Shown here in pieces: positions 1,099 through 4,022 of a stretch of 4,389 nt of DNA. The stretch's first letter is position 1. Every line of letters begins with the position of its first letter. A program made the position numbers and the translations under genes. Origin of the DNA: a virus (taxonomy: Duplodnaviria > Heunggongvirae > Uroviricota > Caudoviricetes); the IMG/VR virus record IMGVR_UViG_2711768053_000013, positions 1-4,389 of that record. One strand, given 5' to 3'. The notes under the pieces are model-generated. The model was not told the origin of the DNA. It was given only the letters and a program-made list of their open reading frames with translations, and did not search any database.

Positions 1099-1175
1099 GG
1101 CCCTTTAGCTCAGTTGGTCAGAGCGAGCGACTCATAATCGCCAGGTCGCTGGTTCAAGTCCAGCAAGGGCCACCA
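1099..1175 (+). tRNA. tRNA-Ile2 (anticodon CAT, lysidine-type; a Met reading cannot be excluded from the anticodon alone)
   Basis: Cloverleaf read by hand: 7-bp acceptor stem GGCCCTT/AAGGGCC, T8 A9, D-stem GCTC/GAGC, anticodon loop CTCATAA (CAT at 1133-1135), T-arm GCTGG-TTCAAGT-CCAGC, discriminator A, encoded CCA. Closely resembles my recollection of E. coli tRNA-Ile2 (ileX-type). Confidence 0.9.
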
Positions 1176-1176
1176 G

Positions 1177-1253
1177 CCGCCACTAGCTCATCCGGATAGA
1201 GCATCAACCTTCTAAGTTGATGGTGCGAGGTTCGAGTCCTCGGTGGCGGGCCA
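1177..1253 (+). tRNA. tRNA-Arg (anticodon TCT, reads AGA)
   Basis: Acceptor CCGCCAC/GTGGCGG (7 bp), T8 A9, D-stem GCTC/GAGC, anticodon stem TCAAC/GTTGA with loop CTTCTAA (TCT at 1211-1213), T-arm CGAGG-TTCGAGT-CCTCG, discriminator G, encoded CCA. Begins only 1 nt after the previous tRNA. Unusually starts with C1-G72. Confidence 0.85.
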
Positions 1254-1255
1254 GT

Positions 1256-1331
<76 letters not shown>

Positions 1332-1334
1332 TAT

Positions 1335-1409
<75 letters not shown>

Positions 1410-1544
1410 GCAGAGGACGATAGATACTAGGTTGTGTTTAGGCACTGACACATTTTATGTGGGGCGTTTTTCCTGACTCCTTACCTCGCCCTGTACTGTA
1501 ATGAGAGATATCTGTTGCAGCACCAGTGCCATTTTTTACGCCAC

Positions 1545-1610
1545 CGGAATGGTGCATTATTGGTAGAGATTTGCAATGTCTCTGGCAGGGGCTGGTAATG
1601 CATCATTCCG
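1545..1610. repeat. long imperfect inverted repeat (15-bp arms) with a nested 6-bp hairpin
   Basis: Arm 1 CGGAATGGTGCATTA (1545-1559) and arm 2 TAATGCATCATTCCG (1596-1610) are reverse complements at 14 of 15 positions; the one mismatch is a G-T (G-U in RNA). The 36-nt spacer holds a nested hairpin, AGAGAT (1565-1570) / GTCTCT (1578-1583) around loop TTGCAAT. Confidence 0.7.
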
Positions 1611-1681
1611 ATGTTGTAAGCATCGCTCAGAATAACGTTGAGATTAATCGCGTACTAAGCAAAACCTGGAAATACATCCTT

Positions 1682-1707
1682 AACCGCCGCACTAGGCGGT
1701 TTTTTTT
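1682..1707 (+). terminator. rho-independent terminator candidate
   Basis: GC stem CCGCC (1684-1688) / GGCGG (1695-1699), 6-nt loop GCACTA, followed directly by eight T (1700-1707). Confidence 0.6.
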
Positions 1708-1792
1708 ATTCATTTTTTTCATGGCTCGCTACGGCGGGCCTTTTCATATCCTCGCCACACCCGGCGTATATCACATCAAATAACGCCGCGCA

Positions 1793-1814
1793 AAAGGCAT
1801 CTGCGGGTGCCTTT
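1793..1814 (+). other. stem-loop (7-bp stem AAAGGCA/TGCCTTT, 8-nt loop) without an immediate U-tract
   Basis: AAAGGCA (1793-1799) pairs with TGCCTTT (1808-1814). No T-run follows, so this is not a canonical terminator; it may be a processing or regulatory structure. Confidence 0.3.
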
Positions 1815-1831
1815 GACGGGGTGTTTTTTAC

Positions 1832-1853
1832 GGGCCGCTGGTGGCCCTTTTTT
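1832..1853 (+). terminator. rho-independent terminator candidate immediately upstream of the holin RBS
   Basis: Stem GGGCC (1832-1836) / GGCCC (1843-1847), loop GCTGGT, then TTTTTT (1848-1853). Ends 7 nt before the AGGAGA Shine-Dalgarno of the holin gene. Confidence 0.55.
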
Positions 1854-1871
1854 ATTTACAGGAGAAAAAGT

Positions 1872-2264
1872 ATGTCTGAACCCTTATCCGGTTCCGGCAC
1901 GGCTGCGGCGCTCGGCGGGGCGACGGTGTACGGGCTGTTTACCGGAACGGATTTCGGGATTGTGTTTGGTGCGTTCGCCGGGGCGTTATTTGTGGCAACG
2001 ATGCCACAGACGCTTTCAGCCTGGCGTGTGGCAGCGCATTTTCTGGTGTCGTTCATTATCGGCGTGCTGGGCGCAGAGGTTCTGGCTGTCTGGCTGGTAA
2101 AGCACACAGGATTTGACAGTGCGCCTGTTGACGCATTGTGTGCAGTACTGGTGTCAGTGGTGTCGGTGAAGATTCTCTCGTTCATCCACCAGCAGGATAT
2201 TGCATCGCTGGTGTCCGGCCTGTTCTCCCGCCTGCGGGGGGGAGGAGGCGGCAATGTTAAGTAA
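1872..2264 (+). CDS. putative holin (130 aa, multi-TM membrane protein); first gene of the lysis cassette
   Basis: ATG at 1872 preceded by AGGAGA (1860-1865). The translation has three to four hydrophobic helices (GGATVYGLFTG, FGIVFGAFAGALFVATM, AAHFLVSFIIGVLGAEVLAVWLV, ALCAVLVSVVSVKILSFI) and a mildly basic tail. It lies directly upstream of, and overlaps, the other lysis genes. Family not identified. Confidence 0.65.
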   Translation: MSEPLSGSGTAAALGGATVYGLFTGTDFGIVFGAFAGALFVATMPQTLSAWRVAAHFLVSFIIGVLGAEVLAVWLVKHTGFDSAPVDALCAVLVSVVSVKILSFIHQQDIASLVSGLFSRLRGGGGGNVK

Positions 2265-2529
2265 CCTTCCCGGATTACTGAATGTGGCGTTATGCATGGT
2301 TATCGTGCTGACGCTCTTTTTTTATCGTCGCCGTGATTCCAGGCATAAACCGCTGATGTCATGGCTGGCCTGGTTGCTGATGCTGCTGTATGCCTTTGCG
2401 CCCCTCAGCTATCTGTGTGGTCGCCCGTTAGCAACGGGCTGGCTGGAAGTGTTTTTTAATCTGCTGTTCTGCGTGCTGGTGATACGCGCGCGCGGGAATG
2501 TCACAAAAATCTTTCCATTGTTGAGGTGA
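2254..2529 (+). CDS. small 3-TM membrane protein (91 aa); possible second holin or antiholin-like lysis accessory
   Basis: ATG at 2254 preceded by GGAGGAGG (2241-2248); overlaps the holin 3' end by 11 nt in another frame. Three hydrophobic segments separated by short basic loops (YRRRDSRHK; RARGNVTK at the C-terminus). Stop TGA at 2527-2529 sits 2 nt before the endolysin start. Confidence 0.6.
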   Translation: MLSNLPGLLNVALCMVIVLTLFFYRRRDSRHKPLMSWLAWLLMLLYAFAPLSYLCGRPLATGWLEVFFNLLFCVLVIRARGNVTKIFPLLR

Positions 2530-2531
2530 AT

Positions 2532-2909
2532 ATGTCGGGTAAATTCAGATTCAGTCGTCGTAGCGAAAAAAATCTGGAGGGCGTCAAACCACAGCTGGTT
2601 GCTGTCGTTCGCCGTGCGCTGGAGCTGACGGAGGTTGATTTCGGTATTACGGAAGGTCTGCGCAGTAAGTATCGCCAGAAACAGCTGGTTGCAGAAGGTA
2701 AGAGCCAGACCATGAACAGCCGCCACCTGACCGGTGATGCTGTGGATGTTGTGGCTTATGTTGGCAGCCAGGTGTCATGGGACTGGCCTCTGTACGAGAA
2801 AATCGCGCAGGCATTTAAGCAGGCTGCCGCAGAGCTGGGAACCGCCATCGAATGGGGCGGGGACTGGAAAACACTGAAAGACGGACCTCACTTTCAGTTG
2901 AAACGATGA
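2532..2909 (+). CDS. endolysin, peptidase M15 family (L-alanyl-D-glutamate peptidase type)
   Basis: ATG at 2532 with GAGG 5 nt upstream. The translation carries an SRHLTGDAVD motif (His65, Asp72) plus a C-terminal His (DGPHFQ), the Zn-ligand arrangement I recall for T5-type L-Ala-D-Glu peptidase endolysins. Size 125 aa, no signal or TM segment. The ORF track start at 2526 is a GTG two codons upstream in the same frame. Confidence 0.85.
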   Translation: MSGKFRFSRRSEKNLEGVKPQLVAVVRRALELTEVDFGITEGLRSKYRQKQLVAEGKSQTMNSRHLTGDAVDVVAYVGSQVSWDWPLYEKIAQAFKQAAAELGTAIEWGGDWKTLKDGPHFQLKR

Positions 2910-2938
2910 CAGCTTTTATTCTGCAGGAGAATGTTTTG

Positions 2939-2982
2939 AAAAAAAATAAACAAAAAGCCGCAGCATCGGCAAATGCAGCGGC
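2939..2982 (-). terminator. rho-independent terminator for the minus-strand gene 3042-3311
   Basis: On the minus strand an imperfect GC-rich hairpin (plus-strand 2957-2982: GCCGCAGC...GCAGCGGC, 7 bp with one A-A mismatch, 10-nt loop) is followed by a T-rich run (complement of the A-run at 2939-2956). Confidence 0.55.
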
Positions 2983-3041
2983 TGGCACAAAAACCGAATT
3001 GTCATTTTTTGAGCAAATTCAGTCAGAGATTATGGCAATAT

Positions 3042-3311
3042 TTAATGAAGTAGTCCGTTAATCTCTCCTCTGATGTTCTCTTGTGATTGTTCCTCGCCTG
3101 CCTCAATACCCCTGGCAATCTGGCTGAAAATAACATTGGCGAGCTTGCCATTGTGTCTGGTTAGCAGGCGTTCACCCTCCTGAAGGAATGAATTGGCTAG
3201 CTCCTGCTTGTCGCAGCCAGTGAGGCTTGCGACTTTTAGTGAGAGGTGAGTCAGAGCCATTTGCTGGCTGCTGATTAAGGCGACAATTACTTCCAGTTGC
3301 TCTTTAGTCAT
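3042..3311 (-). CDS. hypothetical protein, 89 aa, predicted soluble and helical; independently expressed accessory gene
   Basis: ATG (complement of 3309-3311) preceded on the minus strand by AAAAAGGAGTGTTC, an AGGAG Shine-Dalgarno with 5-nt spacing. Own terminator downstream (2939-2982). Opposite orientation to the flanking late genes. No motif recognised in MTKEQLEVIVALISSQQMALTHLSLKVASLTGCDKQELANSFLQEGERLLTRHNGKLANVIFSQIARGIEAGEEQSQENIRGEINGLLH. Confidence 0.6.
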   Translation of the reverse strand: MTKEQLEVIVALISSQQMALTHLSLKVASLTGCDKQELANSFLQEGERLLTRHNGKLANVIFSQIARGIEAGEEQSQENIRGEINGLLH

Positions 3312-3395
3312 GAACACTCCTTTTTGCGTTTAGTTCAGCGGGGATTGTATCAAGTGAATTGCAAAATTATGAGCCGAAAGCACTGGACACACAGA
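3312..3395. promoter_or_regulatory. divergent promoter region between the minus-strand 89-aa gene and the lipoprotein gene
   Basis: The 84-bp gap between the two divergent start codons has a minus-strand extended -10 candidate, TGATACAAT (complement of 3344-3352). It overlaps a plus-strand candidate: -35 TTGTAT (3345-3350), 17-bp spacer, -10 TATGAG (3368-3373). Both are weak to moderate matches. Confidence 0.35.
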
Positions 3396-3551
3396 ATGCC
3401 GCGAACGGCGGCGAAATGGGCACTGGTAGCGATACTGGTGCCTTTTTTCCTGGTGGGATGCGTCAGCCTGGATAAAGCGCGCCAGCTTTTCGATACAGCT
3501 TCTCAGGTCTGTGAAATTGTCGACGGTGTTCGGCAGTGTCTGCAGAACTGA
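3396..3551 (+). CDS. small lipoprotein (51-aa precursor; lipobox LVGC; about 30-aa mature peptide with two further Cys)
   Basis: MPRTAAKWALVAILVPFFLVGC has a basic n-region, a hydrophobic h-region and an L-V-G-C lipobox. The mature part CVSLDKARQLFDTASQVCEIVDGVRQCLQN has two more cysteines. An in-frame ATG at 3369 would add nine residues (MSRKHWTHR). Neither start has a strong Shine-Dalgarno. Confidence 0.5.
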   Translation: MPRTAAKWALVAILVPFFLVGCVSLDKARQLFDTASQVCEIVDGVRQCLQN

Positions 3552-3562
3552 TCACCTGTAAA

Positions 3563-3578
3563 AGCAAAATATTTTGCT
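3563..3578. repeat. perfect 16-bp palindrome AGCAAAATATTTTGCT
   Basis: The sequence equals its own reverse complement. It lies 12 nt after the lipoprotein stop, in the 170-bp gap upstream of the 99-aa gene, and is not followed by a T-run on either strand. Confidence 0.6.
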
Positions 3579-3722
3579 GAAAAATGAAGGATGCGCCAGC
3601 GTCCGGAAAGCATGAAATTCTGTGTTTGTGGCTATTCAATAAAATAAATTCTTTCTGTCGCCGCGAATACTCAAATGTTGAACAGTGCCCGGTGCGGCGA
3701 CGGGCTTCGATATCAGGAGACG

Positions 3723-4022
3723 ATGATGGAAAAAACAGAAAACAAACCGATTGTAATTGGTGCTGATGCTGCTCCGTTTATGTTTGAGTTGTCTCAACTG
3801 GTGGAGATGCGCATCAGTGATGAATGGGGTGAGGTTAAAGCCCGCGCGCAGTATGCGGATGGCGAAAACCAGTACTTGATCCACTACAAAGCAGCTGATG
3901 GTCGCGCCACAACGGAGTGGTTTGGTGAGTCAATGCTGGAAGCAACAGAAGATGATCGCCATCCGGGCTGTCCGGTATTTGCCGGTATGAAATTACCGGA
4001 AGGCGCAGTTGTTACTGAGTAA
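3723..4022 (+). CDS. hypothetical small acidic protein (99 aa)
   Basis: Tandem ATG ATG at 3723/3726 preceded by AGGAGA (3714-3719). About 19 Asp/Glu against 9 Lys/Arg, no hydrophobic segment. Same strand as, and directly upstream of, the HNH endonuclease gene. Confidence 0.6.
   Translation: MMEKTENKPIVIGADAAPFMFELSQLVEMRISDEWGEVKARAQYADGENQYLIHYKAADGRATTEWFGESMLEATEDDRHPGCPVFAGMKLPEGAVVTE

What the first reader, a model, noticed from the sequence alone, without database searches (positions are those of the whole stretch)
1872..2909. Lysis cassette with two holin-like membrane proteins and an M15 endolysin but no spanin genes
The cassette is compact and translationally coupled (11-nt overlap between holin and the second membrane protein; 2 nt between that protein's stop and the endolysin start). 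No ORF of at least 60 aa with an N-terminal TM (i-spanin) or an embedded lipoprotein follows the endolysin. A terminator for a convergent gene lies there instead. Either the spanins are missing (lysis would depend on another route), or the second 3-TM protein has an unappreciated role, or the divergent lipoprotein is a displaced o-spanin remnant.
Basis: partly seen in the sequence, partly recalled or inferred. Interest (0 to 1): 0.45.

Follow-up and report, generated by a model that had tools for sequence, protein, structure and literature searches.

The report
Spanin-less lysis cassette ending in lipoprotein
This prophage's cell-bursting gene cluster (two holins and a wall-cutting peptidase) has no normal spanin pair for breaking the outer membrane, but a tiny conserved outer-membrane lipoprotein, pushed 460 bases downstream here by an inserted gene, sits in the spanin position in about 145 related cassettes and may break the outer membrane alone.

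Summary
Window 1872-2909 encodes a PF16931 holin, a PF05449 3-TM holin and a cytoplasmic M15 L-Ala-D-Glu endolysin, with the stated 11-nt overlap and 2-nt gap. No canonical spanin exists in the window or anywhere in the 40-kb phiP27-like prophage.

The cassette does not end at 2909, though. The 60-aa lipoprotein at 3369-3551, on the same strand, is its conserved last gene. In 145 non-redundant related contexts it always lies downstream of an endolysin, often -4 to 17 nt away. It occurs with two holin types and three endolysin types. In relatives, Rz/Rz1 occupies exactly the same slot instead. In this window a convergent 89-aa gene with its own terminator was inserted between endolysin and lipoprotein.

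The published spanin census lists phiP27 as having a two-component spanin: this lipoprotein plus a 64-aa "i-spanin". That i-spanin is an antisense ORF. It is truncated to 36 aa here and absent from nearly all other contexts.

Most likely the lipoprotein (30-aa mature amphipathic helix, three invariant Cys) performs the outer-membrane step without an inner-membrane partner. This is inferred, not shown.

The parts
1682..1847 (+). Three terminator-like hairpins with T-runs (1682-1701, 1723-1740, 1832-1847) just upstream of the cassette. Probably read through only by Q-antiterminated late transcription.
   Evidence: An antiterminator Q gene lies upstream in the ESC818 prophage. The function is inferred.
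1872..2264 (+). Holin 1, 130 aa, Phage_holin_8 family, with 3 strong and 1 weaker hydrophobic segments.
   Evidence: Pfam PF16931 E 4e-22. phrog_198 holin E 6e-42. Hydropathy.
2254..2529 (+). Second holin or antiholin, 91 aa, 3 TM, predicted N-out/C-in. It overlaps holin 1 by 11 nt.
   Evidence: Pfam PF05449 E 6e-22. phrog_217 holin. Loop charges 0/+5/+1/+3.
2532..2909 (+). Endolysin, 125 aa, M15 L-alanyl-D-glutamate endopeptidase with no signal or SAR domain. It carries the SxHxxGxAxD motif at residues 64-73 and a C-terminal His.
   Evidence: No hydrophobic stretch.
2906..3061 (+). Doubtful small ORF (51 aa; PGAP calls 2935-3060; equals phiP27 L31). It lies over the terminator and 3' UTR of the convergent gene, and its Lys-rich and Ala-rich stretch is encoded by the terminator. 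Probably not a gene.
   Evidence: No Pfam, PHROG, NCBIfam or PADLOC hit. Overlap with the hairpin. Not resolved.
2937..2983 (-). Intrinsic terminator of the convergent 89-aa gene: hairpin at 2956-2983, U-run at 2937-2955.
   Evidence: RNA fold of 2925-3045 on the minus strand.
3042..3311 (-). Inserted convergent gene, 89 aa, all-helical, function unknown (phrog_36812). It has two alleles that are 46% identical (window type and phiP27 type). It separates the endolysin from the lipoprotein.
   Evidence: Present in only 7 of 145 lipoprotein contexts.
3073..3183 (+). 36-aa antisense ORF. It is the truncated counterpart of the 64-aa phiP27 ORF that the 2018 spanin census called an i-spanin. Not a gene.
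   Evidence: PMC6139136 supplementary file 5..
3369..3551 (+). Lipoprotein, 60 aa. Basic conserved n-region 1-16, h-region, lipobox LVGC with Cys31 (codon 3459-3461), Val at +2. The mature part is 30 aa, an amphipathic heptad helix with invariant Cys48 and Cys57. It is the conserved terminal gene of the lysis cassette and the proposed outer-membrane disruptor.
3418..3449 (+). Conserved terminator-like hairpin (11-bp stem) plus a T5-6 run, inside the signal-peptide coding part of the lipoprotein gene.
   Evidence: Fold z = -4.5. All 11 pairs kept in 87 of 92 gene variants.

Best explanation
The window carries the late region of a phiP27-like E. coli prophage with a four-gene lysis cassette. A moron has split that cassette.

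Step 1. Q-antiterminated late transcription reads through the terminators at 1682-1847. This is inferred.

Step 2. The PF16931 and PF05449 membrane proteins act as holin, or as holin plus antiholin, and open the inner membrane. The family membership is shown; which protein is the true holin is not known.

Step 3. The signal-less M15 L-Ala-D-Glu endopeptidase escapes through the holin holes and cuts peptidoglycan cross-bridges. The family, catalytic motif and lack of an export signal are shown.

Step 4. The outer membrane is dealt with not by a spanin pair but by the 60-aa lipoprotein at 3369-3551. After lipidation at Cys31 and Lol sorting (Val at +2), it leaves a 30-residue amphipathic, Cys-containing helix on the inner face of the outer membrane. 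I infer that it destabilises the outer membrane without a phage-encoded inner-membrane partner. In size and anchoring it resembles colicin-release lysis lipoproteins more than a periplasm-spanning fusion machine. Its unusually conserved signal peptide may contribute to the function.

In this window and in phiP27, an 89-aa convergent gene with its own terminator was inserted between endolysin and lipoprotein. That insertion is why the cassette looks as if it ends at 2909.
For: Position. In 145 non-redundant contexts, an intact lipoprotein gene always lies downstream of an endolysin on the same strand. There are 17 distinct junctions of only 0-17 nt, or a 4-nt overlap. Examples are E. coli W at 14 nt with an AGGTG ribosome-binding site and Yersinia with an ATGA overlap.

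Module independence. The lipoprotein follows PF16931+PF05449 holins with an M15 endolysin, the same holins with a GH108 endolysin, an unrelated single 115-aa holin with M15, and that holin with a third 175-aa endolysin. The downstream packaging modules vary.

Slot equivalence. E. coli KFu019 has cassette + small C-terminal-TM ORF + Rz/Rz1 + L33 + HNH. ETEC H10407 has cassette + the same small ORF + lipoprotein + L33. NY1601 and L160 have Rz/Rz1 directly after the endolysin. More distant cassette relatives (mEp390, HK639, a Klebsiella phage) carry a small overlapped spanin pair there.

Decay alongside spanins. In Stx phages that carry S-R-Rz/Rz1, the lipoprotein homologue is a pseudogene with 4 stop codons.

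Sampling from the holin side. Of 76 informative loci found with the second holin, 71 have the lipoprotein, 1 has Rz/Rz1 and 4 have neither.

Only candidate. It is the only lipobox ORF in the 40-kb prophage, and no type-II inner-membrane protein is present.

Constraint. pN/pS is 0.26 overall, 0.22 for the mature part and 0.33 for the n-region. The lipobox and three Cys are invariant even in members about 45-60% identical.

Expression. The gene is co-oriented with the cassette and has no room for its own promoter where it abuts the endolysin. That implies late expression.
Against: There is no experiment and no homology to any characterised outer-membrane disruptor. Pfam, NCBIfam and PADLOC give nothing, and its PHROG family has unknown function.

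The mature peptide is short (30 aa) and slightly acidic (net -1), unlike the cationic disruptin.

Exclusivity with spanins is not strict. NY1601 has Rz/Rz1 plus an intact 47-aa copy of the lipoprotein further downstream.

Some cassettes have neither lipoprotein nor spanin: L122, L134, L136, L153, EC43 and Rac-SA53. So the function may be dispensable, or those prophages may be defective.

In this window the native ribosome-binding context was lost, because homology to the adjacent type starts 2 nt before the ATG. A terminator-like hairpin also lies inside the gene.

Most loci come from E. coli prophages and are not phylogenetically independent.
Confidence: 0.5

Rival explanations
1. Canonical separated two-component spanin, as listed in the 2018 census. 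The lipoprotein is the o-spanin, and a small TM protein encoded on the + strand inside 3042-3311 (64 aa in phiP27) is the i-spanin. Together they bridge the periplasm and fuse the membranes.
For: PMC6139136 lists phiP27 among the separated spanins. It gives the i-spanin at 20348-20542 and the o-spanin at 20706-20861, with 32 + 30 periplasmic residues, the shortest of all.
Against: The i-spanin ORF starts with TTG and is antisense to a gene whose 89/90-aa frame is kept between alleles only 46% identical. In this window it is cut to 36 aa, leaving 6 residues after the TM. It hits no spanin model. The region that encodes it is absent from 138 of 145 lipoprotein contexts, including those where the lipoprotein abuts the endolysin. 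Sixty-two residues can hardly span the periplasm.
Confidence: 0.03
2. Non-canonical spanin. The lipoprotein is a true o-spanin whose inner-membrane partner is not type II. Candidates are one of the holins, a small C-terminal-TM protein of the cTM57 family where present, or a host envelope protein.
For: The census itself notes that proteins of other topologies could act as i-spanins. A 37-60-aa C-terminal-TM ORF lies immediately upstream of the lipoprotein in about 69 of 145 contexts. The mature peptide has a heptad pattern and two conserved Cys, as expected for disulfide-linked coiled-coil contacts.
Against: cTM57 is absent from this window, from E. coli W and from Yersinia. In Stx phages and in KFu019 it sits in front of complete Rz/Rz1 pairs. 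The lipoprotein occurs with two unrelated holin types. No candidate has a periplasmic domain longer than about 20 residues.
Confidence: 0.15
3. Truly spanin-less cassette. The lipoprotein is a late-expressed accessory with another job, such as lysis timing, envelope modification or exclusion. The outer membrane fails mechanically, or is broken by spanins of co-resident prophages.
For: Some cassettes carry neither lipoprotein nor spanin. NY1601 carries both. The stretch between the lysis genes and the terminase is a known hot spot for morons; ais-like, Bor and toxin genes appear there in relatives. About 13% of phages of Gram-negative hosts have no identifiable spanin.
Against: The gene tracks the endolysin 3' end, not the tail or receptor modules. 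It is translationally coupled to the endolysin in several lineages. It is interchangeable with Rz/Rz1 between the same flanking genes, and it decays where Rz/Rz1 is present. It associates with three enzymatically different endolysins, so it is not a specific endolysin modulator.
Confidence: 0.25

Closest known systems
Stx2e phage phiP27 lysis region (L28-L30, plus the spanins assigned in Kongari et al. 2018, PMC6139136)
   Same: It matches over 75% of the window at 93% identity. It has the same holin pair, M15 endolysin, convergent gene, lipoprotein, L33 and HNH. The lipoprotein is 96.7% identical.
   Different: phiP27 has stx2e between the tRNAs and the holin, and another allele (46% identity) of the convergent gene. 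GenBank annotates the lipoprotein region in the wrong frame (L32). The census adds a 64-aa antisense i-spanin that has no intact counterpart here.
Lambda Rz/Rz1-type two-component spanins
   Same: Both have an outer-membrane lipoprotein with periplasmic Cys, encoded at the 3' end of a holin-endolysin cassette. Rz/Rz1 occupies the identical slot in close relatives.
   Different: There is no i-spanin. The mature lipoprotein is 30 aa, helical and not Pro-rich. It is not embedded or overlapped, and there is no sequence similarity.
mEp390 / HK639 cassette (PF16931 holin, PF05449 holin, lysozyme, overlapped small spanin pair)
   Same: It has a homologous holin pair (about 45-50% identity) in the same order, followed by an endolysin and then the outer-membrane function.
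   Different: Those phages carry a 91-aa i-spanin (phrog_1026) and an o-spanin of about 75 aa as precursor (phrog_1275). BLASTP gives no alignment with the lipoprotein.
Phage T1 gp11 unimolecular spanin
   Same: Both are a single gene with an N-terminal lipoprotein signal in the spanin slot.
   Different: The lipoprotein has no C-terminal TM domain, and its mature part is far too short to span the periplasm.
phiKT gp28 disruptin (bioRxiv 10.1101/515445)
   Same: Both are small, amphipathic helical, single-component alternatives to spanins in an E. coli phage.
   Different: gp28 is a 56-aa cationic peptide. The lipoprotein is exported and lipid-anchored, and its mature part has net charge -1. 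No homology.
Colicin lysis / bacteriocin release lipoproteins (Pfam PF02402) and entericidin B
   Same: From my own knowledge: these are very small lipoproteins (mature about 28-33 aa) whose overproduction permeabilises the envelope. Colicin-release proteins have functionally important, stable signal peptides. The lipoprotein here has the same size class, a lipobox and an unusually conserved signal peptide.
   Different: No Pfam match even at E <= 10. Dependence on phospholipase A is untested. The resemblance is an analogy, not membership.

Membership tests
Two-component spanin (i-spanin + o-spanin) | i-spanin: a type-II inner-membrane protein with an N-terminal TMD and a helical periplasmic domain, encoded next to the o-spanin | tested here: not met
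   There is no such ORF in 2815-3884 or in the whole prophage. The published candidate is an antisense ORF, 36 aa here.
Two-component spanin (i-spanin + o-spanin) | o-spanin: an outer-membrane lipoprotein (lipobox, no Asp at +2) in or next to the lysis cassette | tested here: met
   Lipobox LVGC, Cys31 and Val32. It is the terminal cassette gene in 145 contexts. Lipidation itself is not testable here.
Two-component spanin (i-spanin + o-spanin) | Combined periplasmic domains long enough to bridge the inner and outer membranes | tested here: not met
   Only 30 mature residues are available. Even the census total of 62 is its shortest value.
Two-component spanin (i-spanin + o-spanin) | Periplasmic cysteines for intermolecular disulfides | tested here: met
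   Cys48 and Cys57 are invariant, spaced 8-9 residues apart, across the family. Disulfide formation was not tested.
Two-component spanin (i-spanin + o-spanin) | Complements a lambda Rz/Rz1 lysis defect (spherical cells in Mg2+) | not testable with these tools
   Needs an experiment.
Unimolecular spanin (T1 gp11 type) | N-terminal lipoprotein signal plus a C-terminal TMD in one polypeptide | tested here: not met
   The only hydrophobic segment is the signal peptide, residues 13-37.
Disruptin (phiKT gp28 type) | Small cationic amphipathic peptide | tested here: not met
   The mature part has net charge -1. The amphipathic helix is present (muH 0.53 over 18 aa), but the protein is a lipoprotein precursor.
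Colicin lysis protein / BRP (PF02402) | Sequence membership in the Pfam family | tested here: not met
   No hit for 22 family members at E <= 10.
Colicin lysis protein / BRP (PF02402) | Mature lipoprotein of about 30 aa that causes OMPLA-dependent envelope permeabilisation | not testable with these tools
   The size and lipobox fit. The activity needs an experiment in a pldA host.
Phage_holin_8 (PF16931) | HMM score above the gathering threshold; several TM segments; first gene of the lysis cassette | tested here: met
   79 bits against a cut-off of 26.4. Hydropathy. Hole formation was not tested.
Phage_holin_3_7 (PF05449) | HMM score above the gathering threshold; 3 TM segments | tested here: met
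   78 bits against a cut-off of 25.4. Three TM segments, with positive charges in loop 1 and the C-terminus.
Peptidase M15 L-Ala-D-Glu endolysin (T5 Lys / ChiX type) | HMM match, similarity to solved enzymes, and the Zn-binding His/Asp/His motif | tested here: met
   PF13539 scores 48 bits against a cut-off of 25. 5opz E 6e-43 and 2mxz E 2e-23. SRHLTGDAVD and the C-terminal GPHF are read from the sequence.

The most novel reading that the evidence does not exclude
The 60-aa lipoprotein family is a further class of phage outer-membrane disruptor, alongside two-component spanins, unimolecular spanins and the disruptin. It would be a stand-alone, lipid-anchored 30-residue helix, possibly helped by its conserved signal peptide. 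It replaces Rz/Rz1 in a prophage lysis cassette found in about 7% of complete E. coli genomes and in the Stx2e phage P27.
Probability: 0.4. Interest if true: 0.8.

Novelty: new variant of a known kind. Interest (0 to 1): 0.58.

Why it matters
How phages without spanins breach the outer membrane is an open question, and only one alternative (the phiKT disruptin) has been characterised.

This cassette offers a genetically easy E. coli test case. It is a single 183-bp gene sitting in the spanin slot. It is interchangeable with Rz/Rz1 between the same neighbouring genes. It is widespread: the holin pair is in 361 of 5426 complete E. coli genomes and the lipoprotein region in 363. It is also part of toxin-converting prophages (Stx2e, LT-II, pertussis-like toxins), where lysis governs toxin release.

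The result also corrects a published assignment, because the phiP27 i-spanin is an antisense artefact. It explains why that pair was the extreme outlier in periplasmic length.

If the lipoprotein turns out to have another role, then this common cassette is truly spanin-less, which would be informative too.

Tried and rejected
Sequence searches on the lipoprotein:
- Pfam, NCBIfam, PADLOC and PHROG gave no functional hit.
- A profile search of 1.84 billion representatives found only 23 relatives, all small lipoproteins of the same pattern. No bridge to a known family emerged.
- BLASTP of the lipoprotein against the mEp390-type o-spanin gave no alignment.

Structure prediction:
- AlphaFold2 of the lipoprotein gave a single helix at pLDDT 67.
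- AlphaFold2 of the 89-aa gene gave pLDDT 57.
- Both models are too weak for fold searches, so I ran none.

Wider context sampling:
- The genome-contig scan with a holin alignment returned only 2 loci. Deeper sampling had to come from IMG/VR, phage records and the look-up of encoding contigs.

Coding-strand test on the 89-aa gene:
- The codon-position test fits the minus frame (identity 0.58/0.71/0.39).
- It cannot by itself exclude the antisense ORF, because third codon positions coincide on the two strands.
- Rejection of the antisense ORF rests on its truncation and its absence elsewhere.

Ideas considered and dropped:
- A disruptin-like role for the small ORF at 2906-3061. Its net charge is +1, it is acidic in phiP27, it overlies a terminator and it is absent from most cassettes.
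- YmfR (2 TM, 60 aa) as a partner. It belongs to the packaging module, which varies while the lipoprotein stays.
- A Tat signal in the lipoprotein n-region. There is no twin-arginine motif in this subfamily.

Literature:
- Searches for PF16931/PF05449, orphan o-spanins and Rac-SA53 found nothing relevant.
- The phiP27 genome paper (PMC127862) is not held.
Full report
WHAT THE WINDOW IS.

The window is the late-region start of a phiP27-like E. coli prophage. It is 98.8% identical over its full length to a prophage of E. coli ESC818, and 93% identical over 75% of its length to the Stx2e phage phiP27.

The genes, in order, are:
- a DNA methyltransferase (32-958);
- four tRNAs (1099-1409);
- three terminator-like hairpins (1682-1847);
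- holin 1 (1872-2264);
- a second 3-TM holin-family protein (2254-2529);
- an M15 endolysin (2532-2909);
- a doubtful small ORF (2906-3061);
- a convergent 89-aa gene (3042-3311, minus strand);
- a 60-aa lipoprotein (3369-3551);
- a 99-aa ORF (3723-4022);
- an HNH endonuclease (4084 onward), which precedes a P27-family terminase in the full prophage.

Where phiP27 carries stx2e, this prophage has only about 460 nt of terminator-rich spacer.

CHECK OF THE OBSERVATION.

The 11-nt overlap and the 2-nt gap are exact. All three proteins pass the curated Pfam thresholds: PF16931, PF05449 and PF13539. The endolysin is close to solved L-Ala-D-Glu peptidases: ChiX 5opz at E 6e-43 and T5 endolysin 2mxz at E 2e-23. 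It has the SxHxxGxAxD motif and no hydrophobic segment, so it depends on holin holes for release.

The second membrane protein has three TM segments. Its positive charges lie in loop 1 and the C-terminus, which is the N-out/C-in topology of class I holins.

On the minus strand, a GC-rich hairpin (2956-2983) followed by a U-run (2937-2955) ends the convergent gene.

No canonical spanin is present. Ten six-frame ORFs between 2815 and 3884 give no PHROG spanin hit. The same library recognises the spanins of relatives at E 1e-23 to 1e-70. The complete 40-kb prophage has a single credible lipobox ORF and no type-II membrane protein. Its only membrane proteins are the two holins, the lipoprotein, YmfR and HokD.

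WHAT THE LITERATURE SAYS, AND WHY HALF OF IT FAILS.

The 2018 spanin census (PMC6139136) does not list phiP27 as spanin-less. It lists a "separated" two-component spanin with the shortest periplasmic length of all, 32 + 30 residues.

Its o-spanin (phiP27 20706-20861) is the lipoprotein of this window.

Its i-spanin (20348-20542) is a 64-aa, TTG-initiated ORF lying antisense inside the convergent gene. Several observations count against it:
- The convergent gene keeps an 89/90-aa open frame between two alleles that are only 46% identical. Codon-position identities of 0.58/0.71/0.39 fit the minus frame.
- In this window the antisense ORF is truncated to 36 aa, with only six residues after its hydrophobic stretch.
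- It matches no spanin model.
- The region that encodes it is missing from 138 of 145 lipoprotein contexts.

I conclude that the i-spanin assignment is an artefact.

THE LIPOPROTEIN BELONGS TO THE CASSETTE.

In E. coli W the same holin-holin-M15 cassette is followed 14 nt later by the lipoprotein gene, preceded by an AGGTG ribosome-binding site. Homology to the window begins 2 nt before the ATG. So the window and phiP27 differ from that arrangement by an insertion: the terminator region plus the 89-aa gene.

In Yersinia enterocolitica the lipoprotein start overlaps the stop of a GH108 endolysin (ATGA). Cronobacter has the same cassette with two small ORFs in between.

A divergent subfamily of the lipoprotein (about 45-65% identity) again follows the endolysin by 3-9 nt. 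In those cases the cassette has a single unrelated 115-aa holin with either M15 or a third, 175-aa endolysin.

Pooling all fetched loci gives 145 non-redundant upstream contexts. Every one has an endolysin upstream on the same strand. There are 17 distinct junctions of 0-17 nt, or a 4-nt overlap. The window-type insertion occurs in 7 contexts.

Sampling from the other side, with the second holin as query, gives 76 informative loci. Of these, 71 have the lipoprotein, 1 has Rz/Rz1 and 4 have neither.

The gene is under purifying selection. pN/pS is 0.26 over 72 variants, and 0.33 even in the signal-peptide n-region.

The family is tiny and unannotated. It has 140 clusters at 90% identity, all from Enterobacterales, and 23 representatives at 50% identity among 1.84 billion proteins.

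IT SITS IN THE SPANIN SLOT.

Close relatives of the cassette carry classical spanins exactly where the lipoprotein otherwise is:
- NY1601 and L160 have Rz with an embedded Pro-rich Rz1 directly after the endolysin.
- KFu019 has cassette + small C-terminal-TM ORF + Rz/Rz1 + L33 + HNH.
- ETEC H10407 has cassette + the same small ORF + lipoprotein + L33.

More distant relatives with a homologous holin pair (mEp390, HK639, a Klebsiella phage) have a 91-aa i-spanin and an overlapped o-spanin after their lysozyme.

In Stx phages with lambda-type S-R-Rz/Rz1, the lipoprotein homologue downstream is a pseudogene with four stop codons.

Exclusivity is not perfect. NY1601 keeps an intact 47-aa copy beyond an ais-like moron. 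A few cassettes have neither function: L122, L134, L136, L153, EC43 and Rac-SA53. In Rac-SA53, LT-IIa toxin genes follow the endolysin.

WHAT THE PROTEIN LOOKS LIKE.

The precursor has:
- a 16-residue basic n-region (invariant R3, H5, T7, H8, R9, P11);
- a hydrophobic core;
- the lipobox LVGC, with Val at +2, which predicts outer-membrane sorting.

The mature part is about 30 residues. It has two further invariant Cys spaced 8-9 residues apart, a heptad-like amphipathic pattern (muH 0.53 over 18 aa) and net charge -1. AlphaFold2 gives one long helix at low confidence. Thirty residues cannot bridge the periplasm.

MOST LIKELY MECHANISM.

Shown:
- the holin and endolysin family memberships;
- the lack of an export signal on the endolysin;
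- the absence of any i-spanin;
- the conserved terminal position of a lipoprotein under selection, and its positional interchange with Rz/Rz1.

Inferred:
- The lipoprotein is expressed late with the cassette.
- It is lipidated and sent to the outer membrane.
- It provides the outer-membrane step on its own.

In size and anchoring, the nearest functional analogues are colicin-release lysis lipoproteins (from my own knowledge). Their stable signal peptides contribute to lysis, which would fit the unusual conservation of the signal peptide here. This is an analogy only, because there is no Pfam match.

The rivals are:
- an o-spanin with a non-canonical partner (confidence 0.15);
- a truly spanin-less cassette whose lipoprotein does something else (0.25);
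- the published two-component reading (0.03).

phiP27 is, to my knowledge, an inducible and transducing phage (Muniesa et al. 2000). I could not check this in the held library. If correct, this gene set suffices for phage release under laboratory conditions.

NOVELTY AND VERDICT.

The holins and endolysin are ordinary members of known families. The arrangement is that of a sequenced phage, and the lipoprotein has already been flagged once as an o-spanin.

What is new is the evidence on three points. It has no i-spanin. It is nevertheless the constant last gene of a widespread, mosaic lysis cassette. It swaps with Rz/Rz1.

I therefore rate this a new variant of a known kind. There is a substantial chance (about 0.4) that it represents a separate class of outer-membrane disruptor, and one complementation experiment would settle that.

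Noticed in passing
window 3418-3449: There is a terminator-like hairpin (11-bp stem, fold z = -4.5) with a T5-6 run inside the signal-peptide coding part of the lipoprotein gene. All 11 pairs are kept in 87 of 92 distinct gene variants, and the changes seen preserve pairing. Synonymous divergence is lowest there (pS 0.12 against 0.19-0.24). It may block expression of the lipoprotein and downstream genes unless Q antitermination is active.
   Followed up: partly
window 3042-3311 (minus strand), terminator 2937-2983: This is a convergent 89-aa all-helical gene of unknown function (phrog_36812) with its own terminator, inserted between endolysin and lipoprotein. It has two alleles only 46% identical (window type and phiP27 type). 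There is no Pfam, NCBIfam or PADLOC hit, and the AlphaFold2 model has pLDDT 57.
   Followed up: partly
L002 (phiP27) 7201-7395 and 7483-7638: The i-spanin assigned to phiP27 in the 2018 census is an antisense ORF. GenBank's L32 is called in the wrong frame, so the lipoprotein (7526/7559-7714) is missing from the phage's annotation.
   Followed up: yes
L003 5507-5680; L006 2630-2782; L255 3675-3788; L256 3671-3784; L171 5662-5844: A family of small proteins (37-60 aa; phrog_4493/1115, function unknown) has a C-terminal TM segment. It sits immediately upstream of either Rz/Rz1 (Stx phages, KFu019) or the lipoprotein (about 69 of 145 contexts). It may be an unrecognised lysis accessory. It is absent from this window.
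   Followed up: partly
window 1410-1871: The spacer between the tRNA cluster and the holin holds three terminator-like hairpins (1682-1701, 1723-1740, 1832-1847). It corresponds to the slot that carries stx2e in phiP27, pertussis-like toxin genes in Rac-SA53 and Cronobacter, and TerB-family genes in other relatives. Here the cargo slot is empty.
   Followed up: no
window 1099-1409: There are four phage-borne tRNAs: CAT (called Met by ARAGORN and Ile by PGAP), Arg-TCT, Thr-TGT and Gly-TCC. phiP27 has only two (Ile, Arg).
   Followed up: no
L178 (Rac-SA53) 4298-5438; L254 (EC43); L122/L134/L136/L153: Some cassettes of this type have neither lipoprotein nor spanin. In Rac-SA53 the LT-IIa toxin genes directly follow the endolysin. 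In others an ais-like phosphatase or Bor gene on the opposite strand does. Whether these prophages can still lyse is unknown.
   Followed up: partly
L005 (PP818812.1) and L174 (JAEWMQ010000075.1): A record named Actinobacillus phage vB_Apl-pPE4 is about 90% identical to this E. coli prophage DNA. A 2.7-kb contig of a 'Bacillota' MAG encodes a 77% identical holin. Both look like host mislabelling or contamination.
   Followed up: no
window 2852-2909 and L008 3431-3502: An alternative-frame ORF starting MGRGLENTERR inside the 3' end of the endolysin gene is open in all relatives. In E. coli W it runs in frame into the lipoprotein, which is why many database entries are 84 aa. It is probably a by-product of the conserved endolysin sequence, and the true start is the MSRKHW methionine.
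   Followed up: partly
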